59,158 nt of DNA from a virus (Duplodnaviria; Caudoviricetes), in IMG/VR virus record IMGVR_UViG_3300035683_000206, positions 1 through 59,158 of that record; one strand, given 5' to 3'. The notes below the pieces were generated by a model. That model saw nothing but the letters and a program-made list of their open reading frames with translations. It did no database searches and was not told the DNA's origin. The position numbers were made by a program, and so were the translations under genes. Position 1 is the stretch's first letter. Every line of letters starts with the position of its first letter. Of this stretch, positions 1 to 59,158 are shown piece after piece.

Positions 1-864
1 GTGAGCGCGCCCGCCGTGCCGCGGCCGCGAGGCGAGGTCCTGGTGGTGGACTTCTCCAACTTGGCCGCGCGCGCCTGGTTCACGCTGCGAGACCCTTCGC
101 TGGAGAAGCTTCCGCGCAAGGTGAGCACAATGCTCACCGCCGCGGTCCGCCGGTGGTCGCCGGCGCACCTGATCCTCGCGCTTGATGCGCCGCGGTCGTT
201 CCGGCATGACCTGATCCCCCACTACAAGGCGGAGCGCGCCGGGCGCGACCGCCCGTCCACCGAGGCGATGACGGGCGCGCTCCGCCCGTACTTCGCCCGC
301 TGGGGGGTGGCCACGCGCGAGGCGGTGGGGATGGAGGCCGACGACGTGGTCGCCGCAGTGGTGGCGAGCGCGCGCGCCAACCAGGTGCCGGCGGCGATCC
401 TGAGCCGTGATACGGACCTTCTCCAGCTGGTCGATGATGCCGCCATGGTGCGCGTGCTGTGGCCGAGTGGCGGGAAGGAGGGGGAGCAGCCGATGGGTGA
501 GGCCGCCGTGGTGGGGTACGTCGGCGTGCCGCCTGGCAAGCTGCTGGACCTGCGGACCATGGTCGGTGGAAAGGACAACCTTCCGCGCATCGAGGTCCGC
601 GCGGGCAAGCCGCCGTACGGCTTCACTGAGCGGCGCGCGGTGCAGCTGCTGGGGGAGCAGGGCGCCACGCTCGATGCGCTCTACGGCGAGATGAGCTGGC
701 TGCTCACCCACAAGGAGACGGCTTGGATGGCCGCCTGCCGCGAGGAGGCTCTTGCGCGCCGGGAGGCGCTTCGGCTGCGCGACAGCTTCACGCCGATCGC
801 GACCGGTGCAACCGCGGTGGTTCGCCTCCAACTCGCCGGGGTGCCGGCTGCGAGGCCGTCATGA
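1..864 (+). CDS. 5'-3' exonuclease / flap endonuclease (PolA N-terminal-like)
   Basis: Motifs LVVDFSNL, ALDA..SFRH....YKAER, GMEADDV, SRDTDLLQL, GGKDNLP. Confidence 0.92.
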   Translation: MSAPAVPRPRGEVLVVDFSNLAARAWFTLRDPSLEKLPRKVSTMLTAAVRRWSPAHLILALDAPRSFRHDLIPHYKAERAGRDRPSTEAMTGALRPYFARWGVATREAVGMEADDVVAAVVASARANQVPAAILSRDTDLLQLVDDAAMVRVLWPSGGKEGEQPMGEAAVVGYVGVPPGKLLDLRTMVGGKDNLPRIEVRAGKPPYGFTERRAVQLLGEQGATLDALYGEMSWLLTHKETAWMAACREEALARREALRLRDSFTPIATGATAVVRLQLAGVPAARPS

Positions 865-43799: not shown

Positions 43800-43802
43800 C
43801 GG

Positions 43803-44459
43803 TCACCACCCGAAGTCCACACCTACGTCGAACTGGACGAAATCTTCGCCGGCACTTCCCTTGACGAACAGCGACCCACGGCGGGATCCGTTCGTAGCCC
43901 AGACGGCCGTGCCGTAGGGGCGAGCGCCCCCGCCGAAGCGGACGCCGGGCCCGAGCGCCAGCCGACCCTGAAGGATGCGGAGGAGACCCTCCGCGCGAAG
44001 CGCCCAATCGAGATCGCCCGCGCAGTATGCGTCTGGAGCGAACTGGCCTGTGGCCGAGTCCCGACAGCGGCTGGTGCCGTTGCCGAGGTCGTCCCGGTAG
44101 TACCGGGTATCGCCCTCGTTCGGAACCACGATCATGTCGCCTGCCCCGGCGAGCCTCCAGTATGACCCTTGCTTTCCAGCGCTCAGGGTGAAAGGGATCC
44201 CCCCATCAGGTCTAGCGACGTACCCCATCGAGAACGCCCCATACCCTCCCCCTGCTCCCCCTTGTGCCGCAGCGGGCGCGACGGCGAGGAGCCCCATGGC
44301 AGCTGCCACCGCGATATGCCGCACAAAGGCCGCGCGGGTGCTCCCCGCGGCGCCGAGGCCGCGATTACCGCTGCCCAGCGTGCCGCCGCTCCGCCGAGCC
44401 CCGCCGTCACGCCGCGCCGCCACAAGATCGGTAGCGTATCCCTGTCGCGAAGTGCTCAT
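43803..44459 (-). CDS. Exported outer-membrane beta-barrel-like protein (start uncertain)
   Basis: Signal peptide ...APAAAQ; amphipathic strands; aromatic C-terminus FDVGVDFGW. Confidence 0.6.
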   Translation of the reverse strand: MSTSRQGYATDLVAARRDGGARRSGGTLGSGNRGLGAAGSTRAAFVRHIAVAAAMGLLAVAPAAAQGGAGGGYGAFSMGYVARPDGGIPFTLSAGKQGSYWRLAGAGDMIVVPNEGDTRYYRDDLGNGTSRCRDSATGQFAPDAYCAGDLDWALRAEGLLRILQGRLALGPGVRFGGGARPYGTAVWATNGSRRGSLFVKGSAGEDFVQFDVGVDFGW

Positions 44460-44584
44460 ACGTTCGATTAGTGGTCAACAGATTGGCGCGGTGAGACGCT
44501 AGGCGGCGTCTTTGGGTGCCGCTACTTTGGTGCCCATGGTGGACACTGTCCTTCCCCTACGCACCCCTCCCAGGAGAAAATCCC

Positions 44585-44821
44585 ATGCAGAAACTGCGCA
44601 GCCTCGTAGCCCTGGCGGCCGTTCTGGCGGCCAGCGCATTCGGTGTCGCCTGCACGGACCAGCACGAACCCCTGTCGCCAGGTCCCGCTCGAAGGGCGCT
44701 GGTCACAGACTCCACAACTATCCAGAAGCCGTCGCCGACGTCCGGCGCCACAACTGAATGCGTCTGCCGCGATGGGGGAGGGGTCGTCAGTTCTGGGAAT
44801 AAAGACTGCCCCTGCTCCTGA
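44585..44821 (+). CDS. Small lipoprotein / candidate signalling propeptide 2 (78 aa)
   Basis: AGGAG RBS; MQKLRSLVALAAVLAASAFGVAC lipobox; C-terminal CVCRDGGGVVSSGNKDCPCS. Confidence 0.8.
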   Translation: MQKLRSLVALAAVLAASAFGVACTDQHEPLSPGPARRALVTDSTTIQKPSPTSGATTECVCRDGGGVVSSGNKDCPCS

Positions 44822-44826
44822 TCGGC

Positions 44827-44857
44827 GCGAAGGGGAGGGCTCAGCCCTCCCCTTCGC
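44827..44857. terminator. Hairpin between the convergent peptide and TPR genes
   Basis: GCGAAGGGGAGGGC-TCA-GCCCTCCCCTTCGC. Confidence 0.6.
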
Positions 44858-46277: not shown

Positions 46278-46737
46278 CCGGCTGCCCCTCCTCGGCATGG
46301 AGCCGCAGTAACTCGGAGATGTAGGCTTTTACGTCCGACTCGGACTCTGCGTCCAATGTCTCTTCATCGGCCAAAGTGCGCAACGCGGCCGCTAGATCCG
46401 CGTATGTGACCCTGCCTCCGAAGGCCTTGATCGCACCTCTGCGGGCAAGCACTTGGAACGCGCGGATTAGCTGCTGGCCACGGTTGTCCGGGTAGTTCGC
46501 CCACACGCCCCACTCTGACCCCTCGCCGGCCTCCCGCAACAGCCCTCTCCTGCGCGCCCAGTCCTCGATCCGCTTCAACGCCCAATCTTCAGGAACTGAC
46601 CCGCTCGCGAAGTTCCCAACGAGCGTATGACTCACCTCGCCAATCTCCTCAGCGAGCCTGCGCCGCGAAGCCTTGGGTTCGGAGAGGGCCTGTTGCACAA
46701 GAGGGCGAAGCAGGGCGGCGCGCTGTTGGCGAGTCAC
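46222..46737 (-). CDS. CI-like repressor (XRE HTH)
   Basis: SRRRLAEEIGEVSHTLVGNFASGSVP...LKRIEDW; divergent from the early operon. Confidence 0.75.
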   Translation of the reverse strand: MTRQQRAALLRPLVQQALSEPKASRRRLAEEIGEVSHTLVGNFASGSVPEDWALKRIEDWARRRGLLREAGEGSEWGVWANYPDNRGQQLIRAFQVLARRGAIKAFGGRVTYADLAAALRTLADEETLDAESESDVKAYISELLRLHAEEGQPDASAARDRDSQPSSSSSR

Positions 46738-46744
46738 GTGTGGC

Positions 46745-46815
46745 TTGACAGTCGTTCCAAGGGCCGTTACAATCGTTCCAGGGCGCAATGCGCATCGTGC
46801 GCATCGTGCGCATCG
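46745..46815 (+). promoter_or_regulatory. Early lytic promoter and operator repeats
   Basis: TTGACA-N17-TACAAT (46745-46773); TCGTTCCA(A)GGGC x2; TGCGCATCG x3 (46789-46815). Confidence 0.8.
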
Positions 46816-46840
46816 GGGCCGAATGGTACAGGAGGGAGGC

Positions 46841-47107
46841 GTGGACCGCAAGACTTCTGTTTCACAGCCGGCGGCGGGTAATGATCTCCCGGACGCCGAG
46901 TGGATCGACGCGAAGGAGGCCGCGCGGCTCCTGGAGTGGGAGAACGAGAACTCCGTTCGCAACGCCAAGGATCGGGGTGCGTTCGGCCCCCGCGGCAAGG
47001 GGTGGATCAAGCTCAAGAGTCGGCAGATCCGCTACAGCCGGGGTGCCGTGGAGGCGTACAGCCGCCGCATCGTCGGTGAGGCGGCCCCCGCCAGAGCCAC
47101 CTCGTGA
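46841..47107 (+). CDS. Cro-position HTH protein (AlpA/MerR/Xis-like)
   Basis: GGAGG RBS; WIDAKEAARLL...SVRN...RQIRYSRGAVEAY. Confidence 0.75.
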   Translation: MDRKTSVSQPAAGNDLPDAEWIDAKEAARLLEWENENSVRNAKDRGAFGPRGKGWIKLKSRQIRYSRGAVEAYSRRIVGEAAPARATS

Positions 47108-47298
47108 GCACCGCCCCTATCGCCCTCCGCCGCACCCCTGAGGAGCACCGCCGCGCGCTCGCGCTGCTGCCCTGCGGCGCGTGCGGCGCCGCCGGCCCGC
47201 ACCACCTCTTCGAGGAGACCGGCCAGGGAGTTACGGCCGCCTGCGTCCGCTGCGGCGAGGACGTCGGCGCGGCCGCGGGCGCCGTGGAAGCCGCGTAG
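47104..47298 (+). CDS. Small Zn-ribbon protein
   Basis: CGACG...CVRCG; GTGA coupling. Confidence 0.6.
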   Translation: MSTAPIALRRTPEEHRRALALLPCGACGAAGPHHLFEETGQGVTAACVRCGEDVGAAAGAVEAA

Positions 47299-47304
47299 GG
47301 CCTG

Positions 47305-47346
47305 AAAAAGAAAAGCCCCGCCAGCGCTGCCGAGGCGCTGGCGGGG
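47305..47346 (-). terminator. Intrinsic terminator (minus strand)
   Basis: AAAAAGAAAAG-CCCCGCCAGCGC-7nt-GCGCTGGCGGGG. Confidence 0.65.
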
Positions 47347-47405
47347 TCCGACTGGAGGTGTTCGAGCGCCTCCAATCTACACACCGTCCACGATTGGAGG
47401 CAAGG

Positions 47406-47777
47406 TTGAGCGCGACGACTAGCCCCACCCGCCCCACCCCGCCGCCCGCCGCCGCCACCGAGGCGGCGGCCGTCCGGTACCTGAAATCTCTCGACACGGC
47501 CCGCCTCCGCACCGGCCGCCGCCATCTCGCCGACCGGATCCAGGTCGCGAAGCTGGACGGCGCCCCGCCCGCGGAGCTGCGCGCCGACCTGGCTGCACTC
47601 GCGCTGATCGACCGCGAGCTCGCCGCGCGTGCCCCGGGCGAGCGCGTCGGCCCCCACGCGGAGCGCGTCGTCCAGGTGGATCTTTCCGGCGAGCAGCTTC
47701 TCGCCGACGCCATGGAGGGCGGCCCGAACGGCCGCCACTCCCACGGCGCACACCCCTACGCAGGGAGCGAGCTGTGA
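47406..47777 (+). CDS. Hypothetical protein
   Basis: GGAGG RBS with TTG start; coupled to the next gene. Confidence 0.6.
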   Translation: MSATTSPTRPTPPPAAATEAAAVRYLKSLDTARLRTGRRHLADRIQVAKLDGAPPAELRADLAALALIDRELAARAPGERVGPHAERVVQVDLSGEQLLADAMEGGPNGRHSHGAHPYAGSEL

Positions 47778-48505
47778 CCACCGTCCTGCCCAGAGACCCG
47801 TCCGCGCTCTACCTGGACCGCGGCGGACACGAGAGCCCAGAGGCCGGGATGTGCCTCCTCGAGGCCGTCTCCTACGTCGCCGGCGAGCCGTTCGGCGACC
47901 ACCCGGAGTGCGTCTCTCCGGTGATCGCCGCCTTCGGGCGGAGATGGAACGATGCGCTGAGCGACGAGGACCGCAACCGCCTCCTCCGTCCGTTGATCCC
48001 GCTCCTGGTCGGGACCCGCACCACGCCGGAGGACGAGGAGATGCGAGCCTGGATGGCCGTCGACTGGCTCGCGCGCGTCCACACCCCGGCCTTCCTGCGT
48101 CTGGCTGGGCTGGAGGAACACGCCCGAGCACTCGAGTCCCTTGCGCGGATAGCGGACGCTACGACCGCGGGCGCGGCGCAGCCGCGCCTCAATGCGGCGG
48201 GGGCTGCGGCGTGGGCTGCGGCGTGGGCTGCGGCGGGGGCTGCGGCGAGGGATGCGGCGTGGGATGCGGCGGGGGCTGCGGCGAGGGATGCGGCGTGGGA
48301 TGCGGCGGGGGCTGCGGCGTGGGCTGCGGCGGGGGATGCGGCGGGGGCTGCGGCGAGGGATGCGGCGTGGGATGCGGCGGGGGCTGCGGCGGGGGCTGCG
48401 GCGTGGGCTGCCCTGCAGCCGACCGTTCTCTCGCTCCAGGTGAGCGCGACGGCGCTGATGACCGCCATGTGCGACGTCGGGCGCACGGAGGGATCCCTCG
48501 GATGA
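47774..48505 (+). CDS. Conserved phage protein with AAWAAA/AARDAA repeats
   Basis: GMCLLEAVSYVAGEPFGDHPECVSPVI...WND N-terminal family signature. Confidence 0.8.
   Translation: MTTVLPRDPSALYLDRGGHESPEAGMCLLEAVSYVAGEPFGDHPECVSPVIAAFGRRWNDALSDEDRNRLLRPLIPLLVGTRTTPEDEEMRAWMAVDWLARVHTPAFLRLAGLEEHARALESLARIADATTAGAAQPRLNAAGAAAWAAAWAAAGAAARDAAWDAAGAAARDAAWDAAGAAAWAAAGDAAGAAARDAAWDAAGAAAGAAAWAALQPTVLSLQVSATALMTAMCDVGRTEGSLG
48192..48410 (+). repeat. 12-bp coding tandem repeat (about 18 units)
   Basis: TGCGGCG[TGA]GGG[CA] units encoding AA[WGR][AD]. Confidence 0.9.
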
Positions 48506-48867
48506 CCTACCTGCTGATCGCGGAGGGGTGCGCCGTCCCCGTCCGCCGCACCGGCCGTATCACTCAGGAAGAGATGGCGGGCGTGGTGGGCGGGCCCATC
48601 GAGACGCTGCCGATCCCGGGGGAGACCGGCCCGCGGCGACTCGCCCTCGTGGTGTCCGAGCTGGGCCCGGTCGGCGGCGCCCCACTCAACTTCTGGCTGC
48701 GCACCTTCACGACGCCGGTGTTCGGCTCCGCCCTGGTGGTGGTGCTGGAGGAGCGCGGCCGGGAGGTGGACTTCGTCCCGCTCGGCCCCGCGGACCTGGA
48801 CCGCGTCGCGCTGGCGCCGGCCGGGGATCTCGGCCTCCGGCTCGCCGTCTCCCGGGGAGGTGCATGA
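48502..48867 (+). CDS. DUF3846-like phage protein
   Basis: EMAGVVGGPIE, V.ELG....PLN, VFGSALVV. Confidence 0.65.
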   Translation: MTYLLIAEGCAVPVRRTGRITQEEMAGVVGGPIETLPIPGETGPRRLALVVSELGPVGGAPLNFWLRTFTTPVFGSALVVVLEERGREVDFVPLGPADLDRVALAPAGDLGLRLAVSRGGA

Positions 48868-49274
48868 TGGCGGGCACTGCTGCACGCCCCGCTGCCGCGG
48901 GATCGCCGCCCGCGCTCCCTGTCGCGCACCGGTCGCCGTGGGTATGGCGGCCCGGGGTGCCCGGCCTCGCGCTCGTGGAGCAGCACGGCGGCCGCGTCAT
49001 CCTCCAGGCGGGGATCCGCGGCATCCTCTGGACGTCGGCCGGCGCCCGGGAGGTGCAGCTCACGGCCGAGCACCCGGTGGCGCGCACGCTCGCCGGCTCC
49101 GCGGCCGTCGAGGCGGCCGTGGCGGAGCTGCTCGCGGTCGCCGGGGACCCGGACGATCCCACCGGGATGGTGGCGGCGCTGGCGTGCCGCTGGGACGACA
49201 TGCGCACCGAATACCTCGCGATGCAGCTGCGGCGCCTGCGCCGGCTGGTCCCGCCGTCCGAAGAGGTGCGCTGA
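48864..49274 (+). CDS. Hypothetical protein
   Basis: GGAGG RBS; ATGA coupling. Confidence 0.6.
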   Translation: MMAGTAARPAAAGSPPALPVAHRSPWVWRPGVPGLALVEQHGGRVILQAGIRGILWTSAGAREVQLTAEHPVARTLAGSAAVEAAVAELLAVAGDPDDPTGMVAALACRWDDMRTEYLAMQLRRLRRLVPPSEEVR

Positions 49275-50383
49275 TGGCCGCGAGCGTGCGCTTCCTCACC
49301 CGGTTCGGCGCGGAGGTGCTGGTCCCGGTCGACGCGCCCAGCGCGGCCGACCTGGACCGCGCCGTCCTGGAGCTGCAGCGCGAGCTGGGGCGCCTGCGGT
49401 GGCGGGCGTGCTCCCCTCCGCCGGGGGGGCACCTCTTCCCCCTCACCAATGAACCCGATTTCGACTGGGCGCTCCTCGGCGCCGAGCGCGGCAAGGGCGC
49501 CGGAGACCGTGCGGACGAGGAGGGCGTGTGGGCGCACGACGGCTTCTACACCCGCCGCGAGCTGGAGGCGAACTCCCGCAAGAACCTGAAGCCCGCCATC
49601 AAGTACAGCCGCGGCGCCCGGCCGACCGATCCCCCGGAGGTCGTCGAAGGGGATGGCGACTACCGCTACGTCACGCTCTGCATTTTCCGCGGCGGCGGCC
49701 GTCGGGAGGAGCTCGCGGTCCCCAAGGGCGGCACGGGCCAGGGGCGCGGAAGCGAGGCGGAGAGGGCGGTCGCGCGCGCGGAGCCGGCCGGTGCGGATCC
49801 GGGGGGGGAGCGGAGCACCGCGGAGCTCACGCCCGAGGACTACATCACCACGGTGGTGGACGCCGCGCTGCGCCTGCGCGACAAGATCCCTGCCTACGTG
49901 GGCGTGGAGGGGGTGGGCGACGTCAAGGACATCCGCGCGTGGGTGGTCGAGAACCACAGCCTCCTGCGCGACCCGAAGGTCTACCGCGTGGTCTCGCGCG
50001 TCGTGGCCGACCTGGTCCGGAACGCCCGGAACCGCAGGAAGGCGGATCAGGTCGCCGGCGAGGCAGCGTCCCCCAGAGAGCAGCCGGCGGCGCAGCGCGG
50101 CTCCCCGGAGGAGGAGCAGCGCGCCGCCCGCATCACGTACGTCGAGACCGTAGGCCCCAGGGCCGGCGACGCGGCGCAAATCATCGTGGGGAACCGCAGC
50201 CGCAGCCTCAAGCGGTACGTCCGCGAGGAATGGTCGGCCATCAAGGCGGATCCGGCCAAGCTGCTGAACGTCGTGGAGGCGATCGAGCGCACGACGCGGA
50301 TCCCCTTCGCCGCCCTCACCGGGGACGCCGGTGGGGAGCCGGGGCCCCAGCAGACGCGTACAGCATCAGGAGGACGCCGATGA
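49274..50383 (+). CDS. ddrB: DdrB-like single-stranded DNA binding/annealing protein with C-terminal extension
   Basis: FLTRFGAEV, QRELGRL.W, FPLTNEPDFDWALLGA, Y.RRELEA, AIKYSRGA...DP, YVTLCIFRGG match my recollection of Deinococcus DdrB. Confidence 0.82.
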   Translation: MAASVRFLTRFGAEVLVPVDAPSAADLDRAVLELQRELGRLRWRACSPPPGGHLFPLTNEPDFDWALLGAERGKGAGDRADEEGVWAHDGFYTRRELEANSRKNLKPAIKYSRGARPTDPPEVVEGDGDYRYVTLCIFRGGGRREELAVPKGGTGQGRGSEAERAVARAEPAGADPGGERSTAELTPEDYITTVVDAALRLRDKIPAYVGVEGVGDVKDIRAWVVENHSLLRDPKVYRVVSRVVADLVRNARNRRKADQVAGEAASPREQPAAQRGSPEEEQRAARITYVETVGPRAGDAAQIIVGNRSRSLKRYVREEWSAIKADPAKLLNVVEAIERTTRIPFAALTGDAGGEPGPQQTRTASGGRR

Positions 50384-53300
50384 TGGTGCAGATCAGCACC
50401 GCCACCCTCGCGCTCCTCCTGGAGCGCCTGCCGATCGTCGACATCGTGCGGCGCCGAGAGGCGGAGCTCGCCGAGTCCGTCCCCGTGATCGAGCGCCTGC
50501 GGGTGCCCGCCGCCGTGGAGGCGGTCGCCGAGGAGCTCCGCACGGTGCGGCAGGACCTGGACGCCCTCGCCACCGTGGCCGCAGGCGACGGACCCTCCGG
50601 CCCCGGGCCTGGCGCCCGGGACCCCCGCCAGATCGACTGGGTCGATCTGGCGGGGGTCCCGGCGCCGCCCCGGGCGGAGGTCGACGCCGCGTACGCGGAG
50701 CGCGAGGGAGGGGCGGCGGCCGAGCTCGGCCCGTACGTCCCGGAACGGCCCGCGCCCGGGATGTGGGTCCGTGGCGCGTACGCGGAGCCTGATGCCTGGT
50801 ACCAGGTCGACCAAGTTCGGGAGGAGGAGGGGTACGGGCTGCGTCTGAAGGTGAGCAGCGAGTGGGACCGGCGGCAGGGCTTCGACGCGAACCGCTGGTT
50901 TGTGGGGGTCCGCCTCGACGGAGGAGCCTGGATTTCGAACCTCGGTGAGCGCCTGGCGTTCCTCCCGGCGCCCGACGCCGAGGGGCAGCCCGACCCCGCG
51001 GCCATCGGCCGCGAGATCCAGGCACAGCTGCGGGAGCTGCCGCCGGAGCGCTGGCGGGAGGTGGTGGAGACGGCCGACGCAGCACTGAAGGCCGCGGAGG
51101 AGGATTGCCGCGCCGCACGTGCGCAGGCCGCCGGGCTGTGTGAGGGATGCGGCGGGATCCCCGCCGCGCCGGCCGGGGCGAGCAGCGCATGCACGTGCGG
51201 CACTGCGTTCCGCACGTTCGAGGAAAGGTTCGCTGACGGAGAGTCGCTCCAGGAGGCGACCACCAGCTTCCTCGCCGACGTGGAACATGAGCTTCGCGAG
51301 CTGGGGCGAGACGACCTGGTCGATCAACCCGCCCCGCCCATCCCACCCACCCCGGAGCTCGCCGCCCGCGACCGGGAACTGCTCCAGATCCTCCAGGACG
51401 CGGCCGCGCAGAGCCCGGAGTTCCTGGCGGCCAAAGAAGAGGCGAGCCCCCACGTGCTCCGCCTGGCGCTTGCGGCCGTGCGCGGCCGGAAGCGCAGCGA
51501 GCGCCGGGTGGGGAAGATCGAGGCCAGGCTCCGCGCCCTGGGCGAGCTGATGGAGGCGCCGGCCACCGCGGAGGCCGAGGAGGAGGCCCAGCCCGCCGCC
51601 CCGCTGCCGGTGGAGCCGGAGGAGGGGCCGGCGATGATCGACGACCGGCACGCGCCCGCGCCGTACTGGGTGGCAGAGCGGAGGCCTCGGATCGTACCCC
51701 CCTACATGCCCGCCCGAGGCCGACTCCGGCAGCTCTGTTGGCTCGACGGCCGCCGAAGCCCGTTCGTGAACCAGTTGCCGGGGCGGTTCAACCATCTGCG
51801 GGCGATGCAGCGTCCCGCCCCCTACTGGGTGGCGATCCGCCTCGATGGGGACCGCGGCCAGGTGGAGAGCACGGACGGCCAGGTGCGCGTGCCCATGCCG
51901 CGCTTCGACCTGGCTGAGGAGTACGCGGCCGCGTGGAACGCCGAAAGCCTCCGGATGCCCCCGCGCCTGCCCGCGGCCGTGTCCCCGCTGGGCGCGATCC
52001 GGCCGCGGGCACGGGGCCAGCGGGCCACCAAGGTGCCCGCGGACCGGCTGGTCACCTACCCGGCGCTGCTGGAGCTGCGGCTCCTGCACCTGGAGGAGGC
52101 GTGGGTCGACCTGGCGGACACCCCACACTCCAGCCCGCGCCGCGGCGCGGCGCGGGCGCGCGTGGAGCGCCTGCACCGCTCTCTCGCCGTGTTCTGCGCG
52201 GATCACAGCATCCGGACGAACCGGGTGTTCCCCGAGCTCACCCGCGCGCTGGGCCTGCCCTCGCTCGGCAAGCTGATCGAGCAGCACCTCGCGCGGCCGC
52301 TGCCGGAGCCGCCGCGGCACGAGGACCTGGTGGGCTCGGCCCAGACCGCACCCACCGGGGAGCCGGAGGAGGAGGTCCCGCAGGCCTGGCGGCAGATCGT
52401 CGAGGACCGCAACCCCGGCAACCTGCCGCACCACCTGGAGCGGGTCACGCTGGCCGGTGCGCGGACCGCGCTGCGCGAGCTGCTCGCGCAGCCCAAGGGG
52501 ATGCGGGCGCGGATCCAGGCAGTGGCCAAGCGGGTGATCGAGCTGGAGCAGGCGGGCGAGGTGCGCCCCACCTTCTGGGTCTCGGGCCAGCGGGCACCCG
52601 TCAGTATAAGCGGCTGGACAGCGAAGGGAGGGGCGAGCGGCACGGCCGAGGACGGACTCGCGCGCCCCGTGGCCGACGTCGTGTGTGCCGGGTGGAACGC
52701 GGGGATGGACGTGGTCGAGTGGAACGGCCTCACCTTCCGCCGCCCGACGTGGGCCCGCGCTCCGGAAGTGGACGACTCGGCGTCCCCAGCTGCCGAGTCG
52801 TCCACCCCGGCGCCGGAGCCCGCGCCGGAGCTGGAGCACTCGGTGGACCCGGCTGCCGAGGTCGTCCTCCAGGACGATGAAGAGGAGGACGCCGGCGCTG
52901 ATCCCTTCGGCAAGGAGCCCAAGCCGGGGCATCCGCCGATCGCCGCCACCGTGGAGTGGACCGACAAGTACCGGGGCACCCGCACGGGATGGGTGTGGGA
53001 GTACATGGTCGCGGCCGACCGGCGGCGGTACGCCCGGGTCACCTGCCTCGTGGGCGACATCGCCTGCACCGTCGGGGTGCGCCCCGCCGAGCTGCGGGTC
53101 GTCGCGGATCCGCCAGCGCCGCTCTCGTCGGTGGTGGGGAAGAAAGAGATCGACGCGGCCTTCCGCGCGTGGTGGACGGGCGGGCGAAGCGACGCCGAGA
53201 GCTACCGGCCCTGGTGGCGCGAGGGCGTCCGCTGCGCCGAGCTGGGACTCCCCCGACCCGACCGCGCCGGCAAGGGCCGCGTGGAGGGCTGGGACTGGCG

Positions 53301-56300
53301 CATCGCGAAGCACAAGGAGATAGAAGCATCCGCAGCCGCCGGCGCCTCCGCCCAGCTCACCTACACCGTCAACGCCTGGCTCCAGGGCCACGTGGACGGG
53401 ATCGGCCGCAAGACCGCCCAGGGACTGCATGGCCAGTTCGCGAGCGTCGAGGACCTGGTGGCGGCTGACCCGGCGCGGCTGACCCAGGCGCTGCTGGAGT
53501 CGGGGCTCTACTCAATGGAGGGCTCCGCGCGGAAGAAGGCGGTGATCTACCACGCGGCAATCCAGGATGCTGCCGAGCGGCAGGGGTTGGTAGCTCGCCC
53601 CAGGCCGGCAGGGGGCGGCCGACGCTCCACCCCGGGCCACGTAGAAGTGTCGGCCTGGCTCGTGGAGCGCGTCCCGGCGCTGATCAGCAGGGACCAGGCG
53701 GCGGCGCTCGCCGGCCGCTGGCCCCACATCGCGCACCTGCTCGAAGCGTCTGCGGAGGAGATCGCGGTCGCCGTGGTGGAGGCGTTCTGCGCGCCGGGAT
53801 CGGATGCCCGCGCCTGGTCCGAAGATGTGCACGCCGCGATCCAGAAGGCGGCCCGGGACGCGTACCAGGCGTTCGTGGGTCATGTGATGGCGGGGGCTTC
53901 TGCCCGAGATCCCGGCGAGGCGCCCGCGGCCGACGCGCCGGCGGAACCTGGGCCGGCGTGGTACGTGGAGGAGGTGGACGGCAGGGTGGAGGTGGTGCTC
54001 GCCGGGACCGGTGTCCGCTGGCTGGTGCCGGAGGGCTTCGGCGCAATGGAGCGCGCGCGTAGCCACGCCGAGGAATGGACGGCCATCGAGGCCACCGAGC
54101 CCCTCCCACCGTGCGCGTCCTGCGGGGCGTGTCGTCCGCTCGTGCAGGAGCTTTGCGACGAGTGCCACCCCGACCCTTTCGCCCACCAGGTGCGGGAGGG
54201 GGAGTCGCGCTGCGTTATCTGCGGCTGCACCGACAGCCAGGCTTGCCCGGAGGGTTGCTACTGGGTGTCGGTGGACCGCGACGCGCAGGAGGGCGTGTGC
54301 AGCACGCCCGCGTGCGTGGCGGCCGGCGTGGAGCGAGGGCTGGTGCACCCGGAGCACGCGGCTGCTGAAGAGGGAGGTGAGACCCCCGGCAGGGAGGGAT
54401 GGGAGGACACCCCGGGCGTGGCGTGGCGGCCGGCGGCAGACCAGGACCCGGTGGAGCGGGCCATCCTCCGCTGGGGCTGGTACGTCACCCAGGTCTACCA
54501 CTCGAGCCCCGTCGACGGGGGCTGGGAGCGACGGCTCCGCCCGGGCGTACGCGAGCTGATCGCGTCGATCGACAGCTTCGAATCCTACCAGGCCGTCCAC
54601 AAGGCGCATGGCTGGGGCGGGTCTACGCCCGACGGGTTCGCGCGCCTGGTGGAGGAGCTGGCGGCTGCCGGCGAGGCGGTAGGCGCGGCCACTACGCATG
54701 CCTCGGAGCCCGAGCCGAGCAGCGGCGGCCGCGCGGCGCCCGCGCCAGAACCTTCGCCGACCGCTCCGGCACGCTTCTACGCGCCCCCCGGCAGTCGCTG
54801 GGGGGATCCCGACCGGACGCGGCTGGAGCGCAACACCGTAACTGCGGAGGACCGACCCACCCTCCTCCTGGAGCTGGAGCGGCACCTCGCGGGGAAGCGC
54901 CAGTCCACGAAGTACGTCGCCGACTTCCGTCGGGGCGCGGACACGGTGACACGCTACGGCCCGCCGCCGGAGTTGGAGGGGGAGCCCGAGGCATTCCTCG
55001 ACGGCGTCGCCTGGGCGCGGGCCCGCGCCTTCGTCTACTACCGGTCGTACGCCTCCATGCACCGGCCGCCCACCCCGGAGGAGACCTCGGTCCTCGATGG
55101 CCACGGAATCATGACCGGATACTACAAGATCCGGGACCGGATCGTCGCGCCGGTGGAAGTCGCGCAGGCGAGGGCGGACTGCCTCCTGATGCAGGTGCTC
55201 TGGGAGCACTCCGACGACTTCTACGCCCGCATGTATGAGACGCGGGCGCGGCTCAAGCTTGTGCCGGACGCGTTGCTCGGGCAGTGGATCGCCGACGCCA
55301 TGGGGGAGCCGGGAGAGCACGGGTTGGTGCTGCCGTTCGGCCGGATCACCTACCAGGGGTGGAAGCCTGGACAGGCCCGGACCGACACCCCGGAGCCATG
55401 GGCGGAGGTCATTCGGGGGGAGAGGATCAAGGGCCCGCAGCTGCTCAGCTGGGTGCGCAGGATCACCGGGATCCATGCGCCAACGGCGGAGACCAACCCG
55501 GCGGACATCTACTCCCCCCCGGTGATCGCGGCTGAGACCCTGCCGGTGGCGACGCCCGCGCGGGAGGCCGACCAGCTGCAGGCACACGAGCAGCTCGGCG
55601 CCTCGGGCCGCGACACCCCCAGCGCTGACGACCTCACCATCGCGGCGCTGGGTGGAGAGGTGCCTCCCGATTCAGCCGCGCGCGAGCGCGACGTGACGGA
55701 GCAAGGCCCGCACCGGTTCTTCATCCGGGAGGCCGCGGACGACCCGGAGGAGCGCGAGCTGGTGGACCGCACCGACGGGCGCGTTCTCACCACGGCACGA
55801 TGGATGGAGGCGTGGGGGGCGGCGCTCCGGATCAACGGCCTTGCACCGGATCCGGAGGGGCTGCTCGAAAAACACGGCATCGCGCCCGTTGCTGCGGCTC
55901 ACGCGCCGGCATCCCTCACGGCCGAGGTGCCCGTCGAGCAGCTCGGCGAGGAGGAGGACGCCCGTGCCGAGCCGGCGGAGCGGCACGCGCTGGTGGCCTC
56001 CGCGAAAGACGAGGCCGCCGAGGTCTACATCAACCTCAAGTTCCGCGAACTGTTCGTCCGCGGCGCGCGCGCGTGGGCGGATGGCAAGTCCTACCCGGCC
56101 GACGGGTACCCGCAGCTCCAGGCAGGCTTCCGATGGGGGGCCAGGTGGTGCGCCGCGGATCGAGCCACCCGTGCGGCCATCGAAGAAGACCTGCGCGCCA
56201 GCGCGGCCCCGGCGCCTCCCCCAGCGCCGGCGCCCGCCGAGCCCGAGGGCGACATCCTCACCATCGAGTACGCCGCCCAAGTGATGGGCGAGATGGAGAC

Positions 56301-56685
56301 GCGGTGCAGGGACGTCGTGGAGGTGCACGAGGTGCTCCAGCTGGTGCGCGCGGCGCTGCTCCGGGACAGGGAGGGGCGGGGCGACCCCAACGCGGCCGCG
56401 TTCTGGGCGATCGACGGGCCGAAGCTCAACAACGCCGCCTTGGACCGCGAACTGCGCGAGCGCCTGGCCGGGGAGGACGGGCGCGCCCTGGAGGGCCACC
56501 GCGCCGGCGTAGGCAGCTACCGGACGCCACCCGGCACACGGGGGTGTCTCGCCCTGGTGCTCGCATCATCGAAGCGCACAGTCCACCTGCGCGACGCGAC
56601 GCTCCTGCTCTGGGTCCGCGCGGCGCTCGGGCTCGCGTGGGTGGGCACCTCCCCCGCGGCCGTGCACGCGGAGGCGGCCGCGTGA
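50380..56685 (+). CDS. Giant mosaic early protein (2101 aa)
   Basis: Uninterrupted ORF with AGGAGG RBS; HhH-like DGIGRKTAQGL..QFASVEDL; Zn fingers CEGCG and CVICGCTDSQACPEGCYWV. Confidence 0.8.
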   Translation: MMVQISTATLALLLERLPIVDIVRRREAELAESVPVIERLRVPAAVEAVAEELRTVRQDLDALATVAAGDGPSGPGPGARDPRQIDWVDLAGVPAPPRAEVDAAYAEREGGAAAELGPYVPERPAPGMWVRGAYAEPDAWYQVDQVREEEGYGLRLKVSSEWDRRQGFDANRWFVGVRLDGGAWISNLGERLAFLPAPDAEGQPDPAAIGREIQAQLRELPPERWREVVETADAALKAAEEDCRAARAQAAGLCEGCGGIPAAPAGASSACTCGTAFRTFEERFADGESLQEATTSFLADVEHELRELGRDDLVDQPAPPIPPTPELAARDRELLQILQDAAAQSPEFLAAKEEASPHVLRLALAAVRGRKRSERRVGKIEARLRALGELMEAPATAEAEEEAQPAAPLPVEPEEGPAMIDDRHAPAPYWVAERRPRIVPPYMPARGRLRQLCWLDGRRSPFVNQLPGRFNHLRAMQRPAPYWVAIRLDGDRGQVESTDGQVRVPMPRFDLAEEYAAAWNAESLRMPPRLPAAVSPLGAIRPRARGQRATKVPADRLVTYPALLELRLLHLEEAWVDLADTPHSSPRRGAARARVERLHRSLAVFCADHSIRTNRVFPELTRALGLPSLGKLIEQHLARPLPEPPRHEDLVGSAQTAPTGEPEEEVPQAWRQIVEDRNPGNLPHHLERVTLAGARTALRELLAQPKGMRARIQAVAKRVIELEQAGEVRPTFWVSGQRAPVSISGWTAKGGASGTAEDGLARPVADVVCAGWNAGMDVVEWNGLTFRRPTWARAPEVDDSASPAAESSTPAPEPAPELEHSVDPAAEVVLQDDEEEDAGADPFGKEPKPGHPPIAATVEWTDKYRGTRTGWVWEYMVAADRRRYARVTCLVGDIACTVGVRPAELRVVADPPAPLSSVVGKKEIDAAFRAWWTGGRSDAESYRPWWREGVRCAELGLPRPDRAGKGRVEGWDWRIAKHKEIEASAAAGASAQLTYTVNAWLQGHVDGIGRKTAQGLHGQFASVEDLVAADPARLTQALLESGLYSMEGSARKKAVIYHAAIQDAAERQGLVARPRPAGGGRRSTPGHVEVSAWLVERVPALISRDQAAALAGRWPHIAHLLEASAEEIAVAVVEAFCAPGSDARAWSEDVHAAIQKAARDAYQAFVGHVMAGASARDPGEAPAADAPAEPGPAWYVEEVDGRVEVVLAGTGVRWLVPEGFGAMERARSHAEEWTAIEATEPLPPCASCGACRPLVQELCDECHPDPFAHQVREGESRCVICGCTDSQACPEGCYWVSVDRDAQEGVCSTPACVAAGVERGLVHPEHAAAEEGGETPGREGWEDTPGVAWRPAADQDPVERAILRWGWYVTQVYHSSPVDGGWERRLRPGVRELIASIDSFESYQAVHKAHGWGGSTPDGFARLVEELAAAGEAVGAATTHASEPEPSSGGRAAPAPEPSPTAPARFYAPPGSRWGDPDRTRLERNTVTAEDRPTLLLELERHLAGKRQSTKYVADFRRGADTVTRYGPPPELEGEPEAFLDGVAWARARAFVYYRSYASMHRPPTPEETSVLDGHGIMTGYYKIRDRIVAPVEVAQARADCLLMQVLWEHSDDFYARMYETRARLKLVPDALLGQWIADAMGEPGEHGLVLPFGRITYQGWKPGQARTDTPEPWAEVIRGERIKGPQLLSWVRRITGIHAPTAETNPADIYSPPVIAAETLPVATPAREADQLQAHEQLGASGRDTPSADDLTIAALGGEVPPDSAARERDVTEQGPHRFFIREAADDPEERELVDRTDGRVLTTARWMEAWGAALRINGLAPDPEGLLEKHGIAPVAAAHAPASLTAEVPVEQLGEEEDARAEPAERHALVASAKDEAAEVYINLKFRELFVRGARAWADGKSYPADGYPQLQAGFRWGARWCAADRATRAAIEEDLRASAAPAPPPAPAPAEPEGDILTIEYAAQVMGEMETRCRDVVEVHEVLQLVRAALLRDREGRGDPNAAAFWAIDGPKLNNAALDRELRERLAGEDGRALEGHRAGVGSYRTPPGTRGCLALVLASSKRTVHLRDATLLLWVRAALGLAWVGTSPAAVHAEAAA

Positions 56686-57693: not shown

Positions 57694-58010
57694 GCGCGAA
57701 GCCGAAGCCGGTGACGGATGGCGAAGGGGGGAGCGCCCCACTCTACCCGCACAAGCCGCCCGTGGAACCGACGGCCGCGTACACGCTCGCGGAGGCGGCC
57801 GTCATCCTCTGCATGTACGGCAAGGATGCAGAGAAGCGCGTCGCGCAGATCGCCGACGAGCTCCTCCCGAAGACGAGAGTCGGTCCCAACCTGGGCCGCG
57901 TCACGGTGCGCGGCATCGACCTGTTGCGGTACCTGAACAACAACCGCGAGATCAACGGCCGCCCGGCCCCGCTGACCGACACGGACTTCCGCCTGGAGGC
58001 CGTGCCTTGA
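57690..58010 (+). CDS. xis: Excisionase-like HTH protein
   Basis: YTLAEAAVIL...RVTVRGIDLLRYL; coupled to the integrase. Confidence 0.65.
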   Translation: MSAKPKPVTDGEGGSAPLYPHKPPVEPTAAYTLAEAAVILCMYGKDAEKRVAQIADELLPKTRVGPNLGRVTVRGIDLLRYLNNNREINGRPAPLTDTDFRLEAVP

Positions 58011-59158
58011 CGTTCCGGAAGAAAGATCGGCCGACCTGGTACACGTGGCCGGAGCTGCCGGGCTTCGGCCGCGTGGGGCCGTGGTCGACCGGCGTGCCGA
58101 AGAAGAAGTCCAAGAAGGAGGCCGACCGGGTCGAGGAGAAGCTCAAGGAGCTCGCGCGCACGCGCCCGGAACTGGTCCAGGGTGTGGTGCAGGGCAAGTA
58201 CACGCTGCGCGCGCTCTACGTGGCCACGCTGATGAAGCGCGAGGACCACCTCCTGAAGCACGCGACCGACCCGCTGCTGAAAGACGTCGTCGAGCGCTTC
58301 AAGCCGCTCGTGACGGACCGCCGGTACAAGGAGGGGCTCAACGACCTGCTCCGCCTGGCTCCCAAGAACGCGCGCCTCAGCCATATCGCGGCGCTTCCGG
58401 ATCCCCTGCGCCCGGGGGCGGAGACCGGGGCCAAGAACATCACAACGATGATCGGCCGCCTGAAGGAGGAGGGGCAGAAGCCGAACTCCATCTTCCGCGG
58501 CTTCTACATGGGCGTCTCCAAGCTCCTCCTCCACGAAGTGGGCAAGGACACGCGCCGGACGATCATGGGGGATGTCGAGACCCCGCACGAGGACGACCGG
58601 CGGGAGGTCGACCTCACCCAGGCGGAGGTGGAGGTCCTCCTGGGCGCCTGCGGAGAGCCGCTCTACCCGATCGTGGTCTTCGCGATGATGACGGGGTGGG
58701 ACCGCGGCCCGATCTCGCGGGCGCTCGGGCGCGACTTCGACCCGAGCGACGACAGCATGGACATCCGCGACACGAAGAACGAGGCGCGCCGGAAGCGGGA
58801 GGTCCTCTCCGACGTCGCGGCCGCGGTCGTCCGCGCCCAGATGGAGGGCAAGGGCCCGGACGACCGGGTGTTCGACCTCACGTACAACCAGATCGGCCAC
58901 CACTGGGTCAAGGCGCGCGAGGCTGCGGGGCTTCCGCAGCTGCGCTTCAAGGACCTGCGGCACGTCGCCGGCGACGCGGCCGCCGCGGTGATGTCCCAGC
59001 GCGAGCTGCAGGACTTCTTCCGGCACCGCACAGGAGAGATGTCGCTCCGCTACCTGTCCAGGAAGCCCGCGCTGCGGAAGGAGAAGCTCAACCAGATGAC
59101 CGACGGGCTGGGTCTCGGCCGGGCGCACCTTCGCGCGCGAAAGGGCGGGCAGGCATGA
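58007..59158 (+). CDS. int: Tyrosine recombinase / integrase
   Basis: MTGWDRG, DTKN, RFKDLRH, FRHRT, SLRY. Confidence 0.88.
   Translation: MTFRKKDRPTWYTWPELPGFGRVGPWSTGVPKKKSKKEADRVEEKLKELARTRPELVQGVVQGKYTLRALYVATLMKREDHLLKHATDPLLKDVVERFKPLVTDRRYKEGLNDLLRLAPKNARLSHIAALPDPLRPGAETGAKNITTMIGRLKEEGQKPNSIFRGFYMGVSKLLLHEVGKDTRRTIMGDVETPHEDDRREVDLTQAEVEVLLGACGEPLYPIVVFAMMTGWDRGPISRALGRDFDPSDDSMDIRDTKNEARRKREVLSDVAAAVVRAQMEGKGPDDRVFDLTYNQIGHHWVKAREAAGLPQLRFKDLRHVAGDAAAAVMSQRELQDFFRHRTGEMSLRYLSRKPALRKEKLNQMTDGLGLGRAHLRARKGGQA

What the first reader, a model, noticed from the sequence alone, without database searches (positions are those of the whole stretch)
49274..50383. Phage-encoded DdrB homologue in the recombinase/SSB slot
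Seen: the N-terminal ~150 aa carry FP..NE.DFDW.L.GA, RRELEA, AIKYSRGA...DP and YV.L.IFRGG. Established: DdrB is a pentameric ssDNA annealing protein described as characteristic of Deinococcus radiation resistance. I found no Erf/Sak/RecT/SSB gene elsewhere in the window. Inference: DdrB serves as the phage single-strand annealing protein, possibly with the 5'-3' exonuclease (1-864), and has about 200 extra C-terminal residues including two similar helical modules.
Basis: partly seen in the sequence, partly recalled or inferred. Interest (0 to 1): 0.78.

Follow-up and report, generated by a model that had tools for sequence, protein, structure and literature searches.

The report
Phage-borne DdrB-type DNA annealing protein
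A temperate phage carries a true relative of DdrB, the DNA-strand-annealing protein known from radiation-resistant Deinococcus, fused to a tail domain also found on other kinds of annealing proteins, which suggests that DdrB-type proteins are an overlooked class of phage recombination proteins.

Summary
ORF 49274-50383 (+, 369 aa) matches Pfam DdrB (88.3 bits, cut-off 25) and the solved DdrB chains (E 1e-35). Its AlphaFold model superposes on DdrB crystal structures (TM 0.85-0.91, about 2 A). The window is an IMG/VR provirus with terminase, portal, HK97-type capsid and integrase genes. The gene lies in the early operon, 2.5 kb downstream of the only consensus promoter found in 46-51 kb. No SSB, Rad52, RecT, ERF or Sak4-type gene was found in six frames. 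New here: the last ~70 residues form a conserved module. A profile search found it on 44 proteins: 31 Rad52-family, 8 DdrB, 2 PF27148, 1 ERF, 2 unassigned. Six IMG/VR contigs apart from the window carry DdrB genes, mostly beside replication or recombination genes. Best reading (about 0.7): the phage's ssDNA-binding and annealing protein, built like Red-beta with a core and an adaptor domain. Not supported: partnership with the 5'-3' exonuclease, and sequence similarity of the "two modules". Only 5 of 9 known DNA-binding residues are conserved. No biochemistry exists. My paper searches found no phage-encoded Deinococcus-type DdrB.

The parts
49274..50383 (+). DdrB-family gene, 369 aa (P0001)
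   Evidence: Translation. Codon-position GC 0.75/0.54/0.92. Pfam PF12747 88.3 bits. PDB DdrB E 1.2e-35.
49274..49723 (+). DdrB-fold ssDNA-binding / annealing domain (residues 1-150)
   Evidence: AlphaFold pLDDT 93-98 over residues 1-150. Foldseek against 4noe, 4hqb and 4exw: E 4e-16 to 2e-10, TM by target 0.85-0.91, rmsd 1.8-2.7 A, 40-46% identity.
49724..49828 (+). Low-confidence, probably disordered linker (residues 151-185)
   Evidence: Block-mean pLDDT 43-72 over residues 151-190; residues 163-180 are below 50.
49829..50065 (+). Middle helical module (residues 186-264), shared only with the 70%-identical homologue P0002
   Evidence: Alignment A1. Predicted helix, hairpin and three helices, pLDDT 66-90. 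Weak repeated match to the five repeats of P0122. No similarity to the second module by BLASTP, hhalign or HMM.
50105..50323 (+). Conserved C-terminal module (residues 278-350), shared with Rad52-, ERF-, PF27148- and other DdrB-family proteins
   Evidence: Alignment A3. Profile search: 44 proteins, of which 31 PF04098, 8 PF12747, 2 PF27148, 1 PF04404 and 2 without a family. pLDDT 92-98. No known fold found.
46745..46773 (+). Sigma-70-like promoter (TTGACA, 17 nt, TACAAT), the likely early promoter of the operon that holds the gene
   Evidence: 11 of 12 matches. It is the only promoter-like site in 46000-51000, where shuffles give a mean of 0.2. No plus-strand terminator-like site was found before the gene. 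The assignment is inferred.
48957..49274 (+). Upstream ORF (105 aa, unknown) whose stop overlaps the DdrB start (TGATG)
   Evidence: No Pfam family above its cut-off and no PHROG.
50380..56685 (+). Downstream 2101-aa ORF whose start overlaps the DdrB stop (ATGA); unknown function
   Evidence: Only a sub-threshold helix-hairpin-helix match (HHH_5, 25.8 bits against a cut-off of 27) at residues 1005-1036. No PHROG and no PDB sequence match.
1..864 (+). 5'-3' exonuclease (FEN / Pol I N-terminal type); considered as a partner, no link shown
   Evidence: PF02739 E 4.9e-23. The gene starts with GTG at base 1.
58007..59158 (+). Integrase-like gene that ends the provirus record
   Evidence: phrog_216 integrase, E 1.4e-9. 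Complete ORF with its TGA stop at 59156-59158.

Best explanation
The gene encodes the phage's own single-stranded-DNA binding and annealing protein. It is built from a DdrB-type core (residues 1-150) and a C-terminal adaptor region. By homology with Deinococcus DdrB, the core should form a ring that binds ssDNA without sequence preference and brings complementary strands together without ATP. It is probably made early after induction or infection, from the operon that starts at the promoter-like site near 46.75 kb. In that setting it would coat ssDNA arising at replication forks or resected ends and promote strand annealing, for recombination-dependent replication, concatemer formation and repair of the phage genome. 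The conserved last module (residues 278-350) is not part of the DNA-binding core. It also sits on Rad52-, ERF- and PF27148-type proteins, so it most likely plugs different annealing cores into one common partner. That would parallel the C-terminal domain of lambda Red-beta, which binds lambda exonuclease and host SSB. The partner is unknown. Shown here: family membership, predicted fold, phage and early-operon location, the domain sharing, and recurrence in other proviruses. Inferred: ring formation, ssDNA binding, annealing, and the role of the module.
For: (1) Homology and fold: PF12747 88.3 bits; PDB DdrB E 1e-35; model TM 0.85-0.91 to 4noe, 4hqb and 4exw.

(2) DdrB is an established ssDNA-binding, annealing-stimulating pentamer. 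I read passages of PMC3834827, the abstract of PMC2879517, and passages of PMC13110880 and PMC8303780.

(3) Phage context: terminase, portal, major head and minor head proteins; an O-like replication initiator; the record is classed as a provirus. The gene is 2.5 kb downstream of the only consensus promoter found in 46-51 kb and is translationally coupled to both neighbours.

(4) No SSB, Rad52, RecT, ERF or AAA_24/Sak4 match in six frames of the window.

(5) Domain sharing: the C-terminal module occurs on 31 Rad52_Rad22, 1 ERF, 2 PF27148 and 8 DdrB proteins among 44 hits. Pfam confirmed Rad52 in P0133 and ERF in P0141.

(6) Recurrence: six IMG/VR contigs apart from the window encode DdrB homologues. 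Neighbours were scanned in five, and in four they are integration, replication or recombination genes. L002 has a serine recombinase, an IstB/DnaC-like ATPase and RusA. L003 has a tyrosine integrase upstream and terminase and portal downstream. L070 has an integrase, a Dam methylase and a DnaB helicase. L073 has a Prim-Pol and an SF2 helicase.

(7) In a Gemmatimonadales MAG the closest chromosome-labelled homologue is followed directly by a Sipho_Gp157 gene.

(8) In L006 a canonical SSB lies two genes upstream of the DdrB gene, so there DdrB is not simply the SSB.

(9) Precedent for a core plus adaptor: the Red-beta C-terminal domain binds lambda exonuclease and SSB (PMC8303780 abstract and introduction).
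Against: No experiment exists for this protein or for any phage DdrB.

Nine D. radiodurans residues reduce ssDNA binding when changed to alanine (PMC3834827). Only 5 are kept here: K94>K103, K102>K110, K108>R116, R132>R139 and R85>R95. Four are not kept: R64>E71, W66>G73, R83>T93 and K135>G142. A basic residue stands next to two of these (R72, R143). W66, the main base-stacking residue, is missing. The clade has instead an invariant W86 at another position, and its role is unknown.

E51 and R83, needed for the stacking of two pentamers, are T58 and T93 here.

No exonuclease gene is adjacent, unlike the classic exo-annealase pairs.

The shared module is not phage-specific. In one Gemmatimonadota genome (L018) a Rad52+module gene sits among ordinary chromosomal genes, and a second genome (L019) shows the same gene order.

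One DdrB-bearing viral record (G005) also has an ERF gene and another (G607) an SSB.

The record is about 70% complete, so a second recombinase could lie outside it.
Confidence: 0.7

Rival explanations
1. It is only the phage's replicative SSB. It coats and protects ssDNA at the fork and recruits replication proteins through its C-terminal region, with no meaningful role in annealing or recombination.
For: DdrB was first described as an alternative SSB (title of Norais et al. 2009, seen only in the reference list of PMC10140301; abstract of PMC3739723 in the listing). No PF00436 SSB was found in the window, nor in 4 of 5 other DdrB-bearing viral records. The neighbours in L070 and L073 are replication genes: DnaB, Prim-Pol and a helicase.
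Against: The C-terminal module is shared with Rad52- and ERF-family proteins, which are annealing proteins, and none of the 44 hits carries an SSB family in its Pfam column. In L006 a canonical SSB coexists two genes away. G607 has both. DdrB itself stimulates annealing (PMC3834827 abstract). The two roles do not exclude each other. T7 gp2.5 does both (recalled, not checked here).
Confidence: 0.15
2. It is a lysogenic-conversion gene. Expressed from the prophage, it raises the host's tolerance of desiccation or radiation damage, as DdrB does in Deinococcus.
For: DdrB contributes to recovery from DNA damage in Deinococcus (abstracts of PMC2879517 and PMC3834827). The only sequencing run that holds this stretch is labelled a biocrust metagenome. 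It may be the source sample.
Against: The gene lies inside the early operon and is translationally coupled to both neighbours, with no promoter-like or terminator-like site of its own. It is therefore probably silent in the lysogen. No RDRM-like motif was found: 0 matches with up to 3 mismatches. In the other proviruses it lies among replication and recombination genes.
Confidence: 0.07
3. It has been recruited for something else, for example as a decoy or inhibitor acting on host defence or repair proteins, or as a working partner of the 2101-aa downstream protein. In that case ssDNA annealing is not its selected function.
For: Loss of W66, R64, R83 and K135 equivalents. Translational coupling to a giant protein of unknown function. 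Two extra modules with no known fold.
Against: The DdrB core is strongly conserved across the clade: 35 invariant columns in 14 sequences, including the KYSRGA and FRG motifs. The giant gene is not conserved next to other DdrB genes: tblastn of the window's proteins against 14 related loci matched only DdrB, one Dam methylase and one unrelated ORF.
Confidence: 0.05

Closest known systems
DdrB of Deinococcus radiodurans / D. geothermalis (PDB 4exw, 4hqb, 4noe; Pfam PF12747)
   Same: Same family and same predicted fold: 40-46% identity over about 150 residues, TM 0.85-0.91. The most conserved motifs are shared (FPL.NE.DFDW, RREL, KYSRGA, YV.L.IFRG), and 5 of 9 tested DNA-binding residues are kept.
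   Different: It is phage-encoded and lies in an early operon. It is not a chromosomal gene of the radiation/desiccation regulon, and no RDRM motif is present. It is 369 aa, whereas 4exw has 184 residues. The short disordered, acidic-ended tail of DdrB (PMC2879517 section 11) is replaced by two folded modules. The equivalents of W66, R64, R83, K135 and E51 are not conserved.
Lambda Red-beta (RecT/Red-beta family)
   Same: The architecture and presumed logic are alike: an N-terminal oligomeric annealing core plus a small helical C-terminal domain for partners (lambda exonuclease and SSB; PMC8303780). Both are early phage genes.
   Different: The core fold is unrelated, and no RecT match exists in the window. 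The C-terminal module shows no detectable similarity to solved structures. No adjacent exonuclease gene.
Rad52/Sak-type and ERF-type annealing proteins carrying the same C-terminal module (for example P0133, P0141, P0150 named 'Rad52/Rad22 family DNA repair protein [Longimicrobium sp.]')
   Same: They share the ~70-residue C-terminal module: 25-45% identity to the window's module in A3, profile E 1e-29 to 3e-19. In each protein it stands at the C-terminus, after a low-complexity linker.
   Different: The cores are not homologous (PF04098 or PF04404 against PF12747). In at least one genome (L018) a Rad52+module gene lies among ordinary chromosomal genes, and a second genome (L019) shows the same gene order. 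Those proteins lack the middle module.
T7 gp2.5 with gp6 exonuclease (recalled from general knowledge, not tested here)
   Same: A phage ssDNA-binding protein that is not a Rad52-type annealase yet serves as both SSB and annealing protein. That phage also encodes a FEN-type 5'-3' exonuclease, as this window does.
   Different: No sequence relation was tested or is claimed. The comparison is functional only.

Membership tests
DdrB family (Pfam PF12747) | Significant match to the family profile above the curated cut-off | tested here: met
   88.3 bits against a cut-off of 25, E 4.7e-25, profile positions 2-131 of 132. The six-frame search gives 90.1 bits.
DdrB family (Pfam PF12747) | The DdrB fold as seen in crystal structures | tested here: met
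   AlphaFold model with pLDDT 93-98 over residues 1-150. The top 12 Foldseek PDB matches are all DdrB chains: TM by target 0.85-0.91, rmsd 1.8-2.7 A. The next match has E 0.2. The model is a prediction, not a solved structure.
DdrB family (Pfam PF12747) | Homopentameric ring | not testable with these tools
   Complex prediction allows at most 4 copies, so no oligomer of the core was modelled.
DdrB family (Pfam PF12747) | Conservation of the residues shown by mutagenesis to support ssDNA binding (R64, W66, R83, R85, K94, K102, K108, R132, K135; PMC3834827) | tested here: inconclusive
   5 of 9 are kept: R95, K103, K110, R116, R139. 4 of 9 are changed: E71, G73, T93, G142, with R72 and R143 adjacent to two of them. 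The clade has an invariant W86 elsewhere.
DdrB family (Pfam PF12747) | ssDNA (not dsDNA) binding and stimulation of strand annealing | not testable with these tools
   This needs purified protein.
Deinococcus radiation/desiccation-response DdrB orthologue group | Chromosomal gene of Deinococcus under RDRM/DdrO control | tested here: not met
   The gene lies in a provirus. No RDRM-like site with up to 3 mismatches. In the quick tree it falls in a 24-row clade separate from the clade that holds the Deinococcus core genes.
Phage single-strand annealing proteins (functional class) | Early-region gene among replication and recombination genes of a phage | tested here: met
   for the window. for four of the five other viral contigs whose DdrB neighbours were scanned.
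Phage single-strand annealing proteins (functional class) | Adjacent partner exonuclease gene (typical, not universal) | tested here: not met
   The genes next to it have no nuclease family. The only exonuclease-like gene found is at 1-864, the other end of the record.
Rad52 superfamily (Rad52/Sak, ERF, RecT/Red-beta) | Match to PF04098, PF04404 or PF03837 | tested here: not met
   DdrB is the only Pfam family at E<=10 for the protein. No match to these families anywhere in the window. Only the C-terminal module is shared with members of these families.
Bacterial OB-fold SSB (PF00436) | Match to the SSB profile | tested here: not met

The most novel reading that the evidence does not exclude
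DdrB-type proteins are a separate, so far unrecognised family of phage and mobile-element single-strand annealing proteins, next to Rad52/Sak, ERF, RecT and Sak4. The famous Deinococcus DdrB would then be one chromosomally fixed branch of this mobile family. The ~70-residue C-terminal module would be a portable adaptor domain that connects non-homologous annealing cores (DdrB, Rad52, ERF, PF27148) to the same cellular partner. Such a domain could decide in which hosts an annealase works.
Probability: 0.35. Interest if true: 0.8.

Novelty: new variant of a known kind. Interest (0 to 1): 0.66.

Why it matters
The papers I could read treat DdrB as a Deinococcus (or simply bacterial) protein and give phages only the Rad52-type annealases (passages of PMC13110880 and PMC8303780; abstract of PMC2879517). 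A DdrB-type annealase in temperate phages would have three consequences. It would add a structurally distinct family to the phage recombinases and give new candidates for recombineering in high-GC or little-studied hosts. It would reopen the question of where the Deinococcus radiation-resistance gene came from. It would also point to a small domain shared by unrelated annealing cores. That domain is a direct handle on how annealases are coupled to host partners, which is thought to limit their portability between hosts (recalled, not checked here).

Tried and rejected
Function of the C-terminal region: nothing was found.
- Foldseek of the model of residues 181-369 against the PDB gave no match at E<=0.001.
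- Foldseek against BFVD gave none either.
- VIA-align against 48,161 chains gave a best Z of 5.5, with generic helical matches only.
- ESM Atlas on residues 275-352 gave no usable hit.
- phmmer of the whole protein against the PDB gave only weak chance-level rows besides DdrB.

Complex prediction with two copies of the module (A5 residues 95-172) gave no verdict, score 0.00. It counts neither for nor against self-association.

Internal duplication of the two modules: BLASTP, hhalign and HMM all found nothing significant.

Host assignment:
- The capsid protein has only 3 relatives, all unnamed.
- It found nothing in 401 Gemmatimonadota genomes.
- The window has no tRNA gene.
- megablast and tblastn against 50,697 deposited phages gave no relevant match.
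- The host stays unknown. A Gemmatimonadota host is only a guess, from the nearest DdrB and module relatives.

Synteny: tblastn of 43 window proteins against 14 related loci found, besides DdrB and the module, only a Dam methylase in L070 and one weak unrelated hit in L005. There is therefore no conserved gene slot in which DdrB replaces a Rad52 core.

Expression: no RNA holder is listed. There is one DNA run, possibly the source.

PHROGs has no family for the protein.

The AU test rejects a single clade of the 28 labelled Deinococcota rows (p 1.7e-43). The unlabelled metagenome rows may themselves be Deinococcota, and I chose the test after seeing the tree, so it is weak evidence of transfer.

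Supplementary files (for example Supplementary Figure S2 of PMC2879517 and of PMC3834827, on residue conservation and the DdrB C-terminus) were not opened. They may bear on the residue mapping.
Full report
THE OBSERVATION.

The ORF at 49274-50383 (+) translates to 369 residues. Its ATG overlaps the stop of the upstream ORF (TGATG). Its stop overlaps the start of a 2101-aa ORF (ATGA). GC at the third codon position is 0.92 against 0.54 at the second, as in the neighbouring genes of this 72% GC window.

Pfam finds a single family, DdrB (PF12747): E 4.7e-25, 88.3 bits against a cut-off of 25, residues 5-140 on profile positions 2-131 of 132. phmmer against the PDB finds the DdrB chains 4exw (E 1.2e-35) and 4hqb (E 4.2e-30), and nothing else below E 0.07.

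An AlphaFold model built on 96 family sequences has pLDDT 93-98 over residues 1-150. Its 12 best Foldseek matches in the PDB are all DdrB chains: E 4e-16 to 2e-10, TM by target 0.85-0.91, rmsd 1.8-2.7 A, 40-46% identity. The next match has E 0.2.

WHERE THE GENE SITS.

The window is a whole IMG/VR record classed as a provirus, with an estimated completeness of 70%. Its genes include:
- large terminase, portal, HK97-type major head and minor head proteins;
- a phage metallopeptidase, a Dam-type methylase, a HerA/FtsK-like ATPase and a 5'-3' exonuclease;
- an O-like replication initiator;
- an integrase-like gene that ends the record exactly at its stop codon.

The record begins exactly at the GTG of the exonuclease gene. 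The exonuclease and the DdrB gene therefore lie at opposite ends of the integrated element, with the integrase between them on the circular map.

A lower-GC stretch with minus-strand ORFs (43.8-47.0 kb) is followed by the only sigma-70-like promoter found in 46-51 kb. This is TTGACA-17-TACAAT at 46745-46773, 11 of 12 matches. A run of plus-strand ORFs follows, and the DdrB gene is the seventh of them by my own ORF call.

Six-frame HMM searches of the window found no SSB, Rad52_Rad22, RecT, ERF or AAA_24 (Sak4-type) match at E<=0.1.

ANATOMY OF THE PROTEIN.

After the DdrB core come four parts:
- a low-confidence linker (residues about 151-185);
- a middle helical module (186-264);
- a second linker;
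- a very confidently predicted C-terminal module (278-350, pLDDT 92-98).

Both modules are predicted as helix, beta-hairpin and three helices. No sequence method relates them.

The middle module is shared only with a 70%-identical, 372-aa metagenomic homologue, P0002.

The C-terminal module is the informative part. In the search of 1.84 billion cluster representatives, 10 of the 128 hits matched only this C-terminal region. Among these, P0133 has a Rad52_Rad22 core and P0141 an ERF core. A profile of the module (A3), searched against longer proteins, found 44 proteins:
- 31 with PF04098 (Rad52_Rad22), two of them named by NCBI 'Rad52/Rad22 family DNA repair protein [Longimicrobium sp.]';
- 8 with PF12747 (DdrB);
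- 2 with PF27148 (not in my Pfam copy);
- 1 with PF04404 (ERF);
- 2 with no family.

In every case the module is C-terminal, after a low-complexity linker. Three or more non-homologous ssDNA-annealing cores thus carry the same tail domain. This is independent evidence that the DdrB core here does the same job as those cores.

The module has no detectable relative among solved or predicted viral structures.

Two cautions apply:
- In one Gemmatimonadota genome (L018) a Rad52+module gene lies among ordinary chromosomal genes. A second genome (L019) shows the same gene order around it. The module is therefore not phage-specific.
- It was found in only 3 of 301 sampled genomes of that phylum, 2 of them strongly.

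THE DDRB FAMILY BEYOND DEINOCOCCUS.

128 clusters at 50% identity match the protein at E<=0.001, and 87 at E<=1e-10. A pattern scan of one genome per species found six loci: Gemmatimonadales (2), Rhodothermales (1) and Deinococcaceae (3).

PF12747 was found in 99 of 201 sampled Deinococcota genomes, many with 2-4 copies. It was found in 1 of 301 sampled Gemmatimonadota genomes, and that one is the genome used as the centre of the search.

Two pattern scans of IMG/VR found six viral contigs apart from the window. I scanned the neighbours of the DdrB gene in five of them:
- L002: a serine recombinase, then DdrB, then an IstB/DnaC-like ATPase and RusA.
- L003, which is identical to a locus of a Deinococcota genome: a tyrosine integrase, then DdrB, then terminase and a Mu-type portal.
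- L070: an integrase, then DdrB, a Dam methylase (38% identical to the window's), then a DnaB helicase.
- L073: DdrB, then a Prim-Pol and an SF2 helicase.
- L069: DdrB after a weak Mu-F-like match.

The neighbours in L072 were not scanned informatively.

In the Gemmatimonadales MAG locus L005, a Sipho_Gp157 gene follows the DdrB gene directly. From memory, Gp157 genes often stand beside phage recombinases. In L006 the order is DUF932, SSB, an HTH gene, then DdrB.

Among five other DdrB-bearing viral records, Rad52 and RecT were found in 0, ERF in 1 (about 78 kb from the DdrB gene) and SSB in 1.

A quick maximum-likelihood tree was built on 147 rows and 161 columns. The dropped rows are listed under Tried and rejected.
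- The window pairs with P0002 (support 100).
- Both lie inside a 24-row clade (SH-aLRT 90, not starred) with 16 module-bearing metagenomic proteins, both Gemmatimonadales rows and the Rhodothermales row.
- The sister clade of 42 rows holds the Deinococcus core genes.
- Another 42 metagenomic rows lie beyond a starred branch.
- The root is unknown.

An AU test rejects one clade for the 28 labelled Deinococcota rows (p 1.7e-43).

HOW IT MOST LIKELY WORKS.

By homology, the core forms a ring that binds ssDNA on its top face and between subunits. It would promote annealing of complementary strands without ATP (PMC3834827 passages; PMC13110880 passage). The early-operon position, the absence of any other recognisable SSB or annealase, and the tail shared with Rad52 and ERF proteins all point one way. 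I therefore read it as the phage's ssDNA-binding and annealing protein. The C-terminal module would act as an adaptor to a partner, as the Red-beta C-terminal domain binds lambda exonuclease and SSB (PMC8303780). I put this at about 0.7.

What weakens this reading:
- Of the nine residues whose alanine mutants bind ssDNA at only 20-50% of wild type, five are kept (K103, K110, R116, R139, R95). Four are not: R64>E71, W66>G73, R83>T93 and K135>G142.
- The two residues needed for stacking of pentamers (E51, R83) are T58 and T93 here.
- The window's clade has an invariant tryptophan (W86) at another position. The DNA path may therefore differ.
- No nuclease gene is adjacent.
- Nothing has been measured.

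The rival readings are a pure replicative SSB (0.15), a lysogenic-conversion gene for damage tolerance (0.07) and another recruited role (0.05). They are set out in their own section.

COMPARISON AND NOVELTY.

The protein is a member of the DdrB family by profile and by predicted fold. It is not a member of the Deinococcus radiation-response orthologue group, for three reasons: it lies in a provirus, no RDRM site is present, and it falls in a separate clade. It works most like a phage annealase of Red-beta-like design.

My literature searches were: 'DdrB' with 'phage' (53 papers, 25 listed), 'DdrB-like' (2 papers), 'PF12747' (1 paper), and 'DdrB' with 'prophage' and 'Deinococcus' (18 papers, 15 listed). 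I judged these by titles and abstract starts, and by passages in the six papers I opened: PMC10140301, PMC10711431, PMC13110880, PMC1978522, PMC3834827 and PMC8303780. No paper found this way describes a phage-encoded Deinococcus-type DdrB.

Three details of the literature matter:
- The 'ddrB' and 'DdrB-like' entries in phage papers appear to refer to the unrelated phage P1 dar gene. I judge this from titles and my own knowledge.
- PMC10140301 reports DdrB-profile hits in Antarctic soil metagenomes without any phage context.
- PMC10711431 used Deinococcus DdrB only as one seed for annealase mining.

Subscription journals and supplementary files were not searched.

I rate the finding a new variant of a known kind: a known fold in a new setting, with a new and informative domain architecture.

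VERDICT.

The finding is real and of moderate to high interest (0.66). It rests on homology, context and domain sharing. It needs a simple binding and annealing assay to become firm.

Noticed in passing
window 50380-56685 (+): A 2101-aa ORF whose start overlaps the DdrB stop. Its only family match is a sub-threshold helix-hairpin-helix hit (HHH_5, 25.8 bits against a cut-off of 27) at residues 1005-1036. It has no PHROG and no PDB sequence match, and it contains Cys-rich stretches. L069 also has an ORF of at least 1391 aa downstream of its DdrB gene, but tblastn finds no similarity between the two.
   Followed up: partly
C-termini of the module-bearing proteins (P0003-P0173; alignment A5): 48 of 66 stored proteins that carry the C-terminal module end in the dipeptide Ala-Ala (often RRAA, EAA or QAA). 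This recalls ssrA-like C-terminal degradation signals (recalled, untested). The window's protein ends in GGRR instead.
   Followed up: partly
window 48192-48411, inside ORF 47774-48505 (+): A tandem repeat of period 12 or 36 (18 or 6 copies, 89-92% matches). In the coding frame it gives an Ala/Trp/Asp-rich repeat (AAWDAAGAAARD...). The ORF matches phrog_3416, of unknown function.
   Followed up: partly
Deinococcota genomes G312, G334, G395, G423, G430, G435 and others (loci L050-L067): Many Deinococcota genomes hold 2-4 DdrB-family copies. The extra copies score far lower against the profile (E 1e-13 to 1e-53). Some lie in open frames of 411-522 aa with long N-terminal extensions, and some sit far from the core genes in the tree.
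   Followed up: partly
L005:7349-8866 (-) and L005:10498-11046 (+): In a Gemmatimonadales MAG the DdrB gene is flanked by a SAVED-domain gene (a CBASS-type defence sensor) upstream and a Sipho_Gp157 gene directly downstream.
   Followed up: no
window 2172-4214 (+): A HerA/FtsK-like ATPase (DUF87, HerA_C) that also matches a PHROG named 'terminase large subunit' (phrog_2666, E 4e-15). The real large terminase is at 9964-11793.
   Followed up: no
window 43800-47016 (- strand): A lower-GC stretch (0.66-0.69) with minus-strand ORFs, including a 485-aa ORF (44841-46298) and a 218-aa ORF with a signal-like N-terminus (43803-44459). It is probably the immunity and accessory region. None of these ORFs was scanned against families.
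   Followed up: no
G607:C1:17345-18010 (-), the viral record that holds L069: A single open frame with two SSB (OB) domains in tandem, the arrangement known from Deinococcus-Thermus SSB (recalled), on the same viral contig as a DdrB gene.
   Followed up: no
P0122 (476 aa, metagenomic): A protein made of five ~85-residue repeats, each weakly similar to residues 214-258 of the window protein's middle module. It has a weak ISP_coupler match with no single stretch passing on its own.
   Followed up: no
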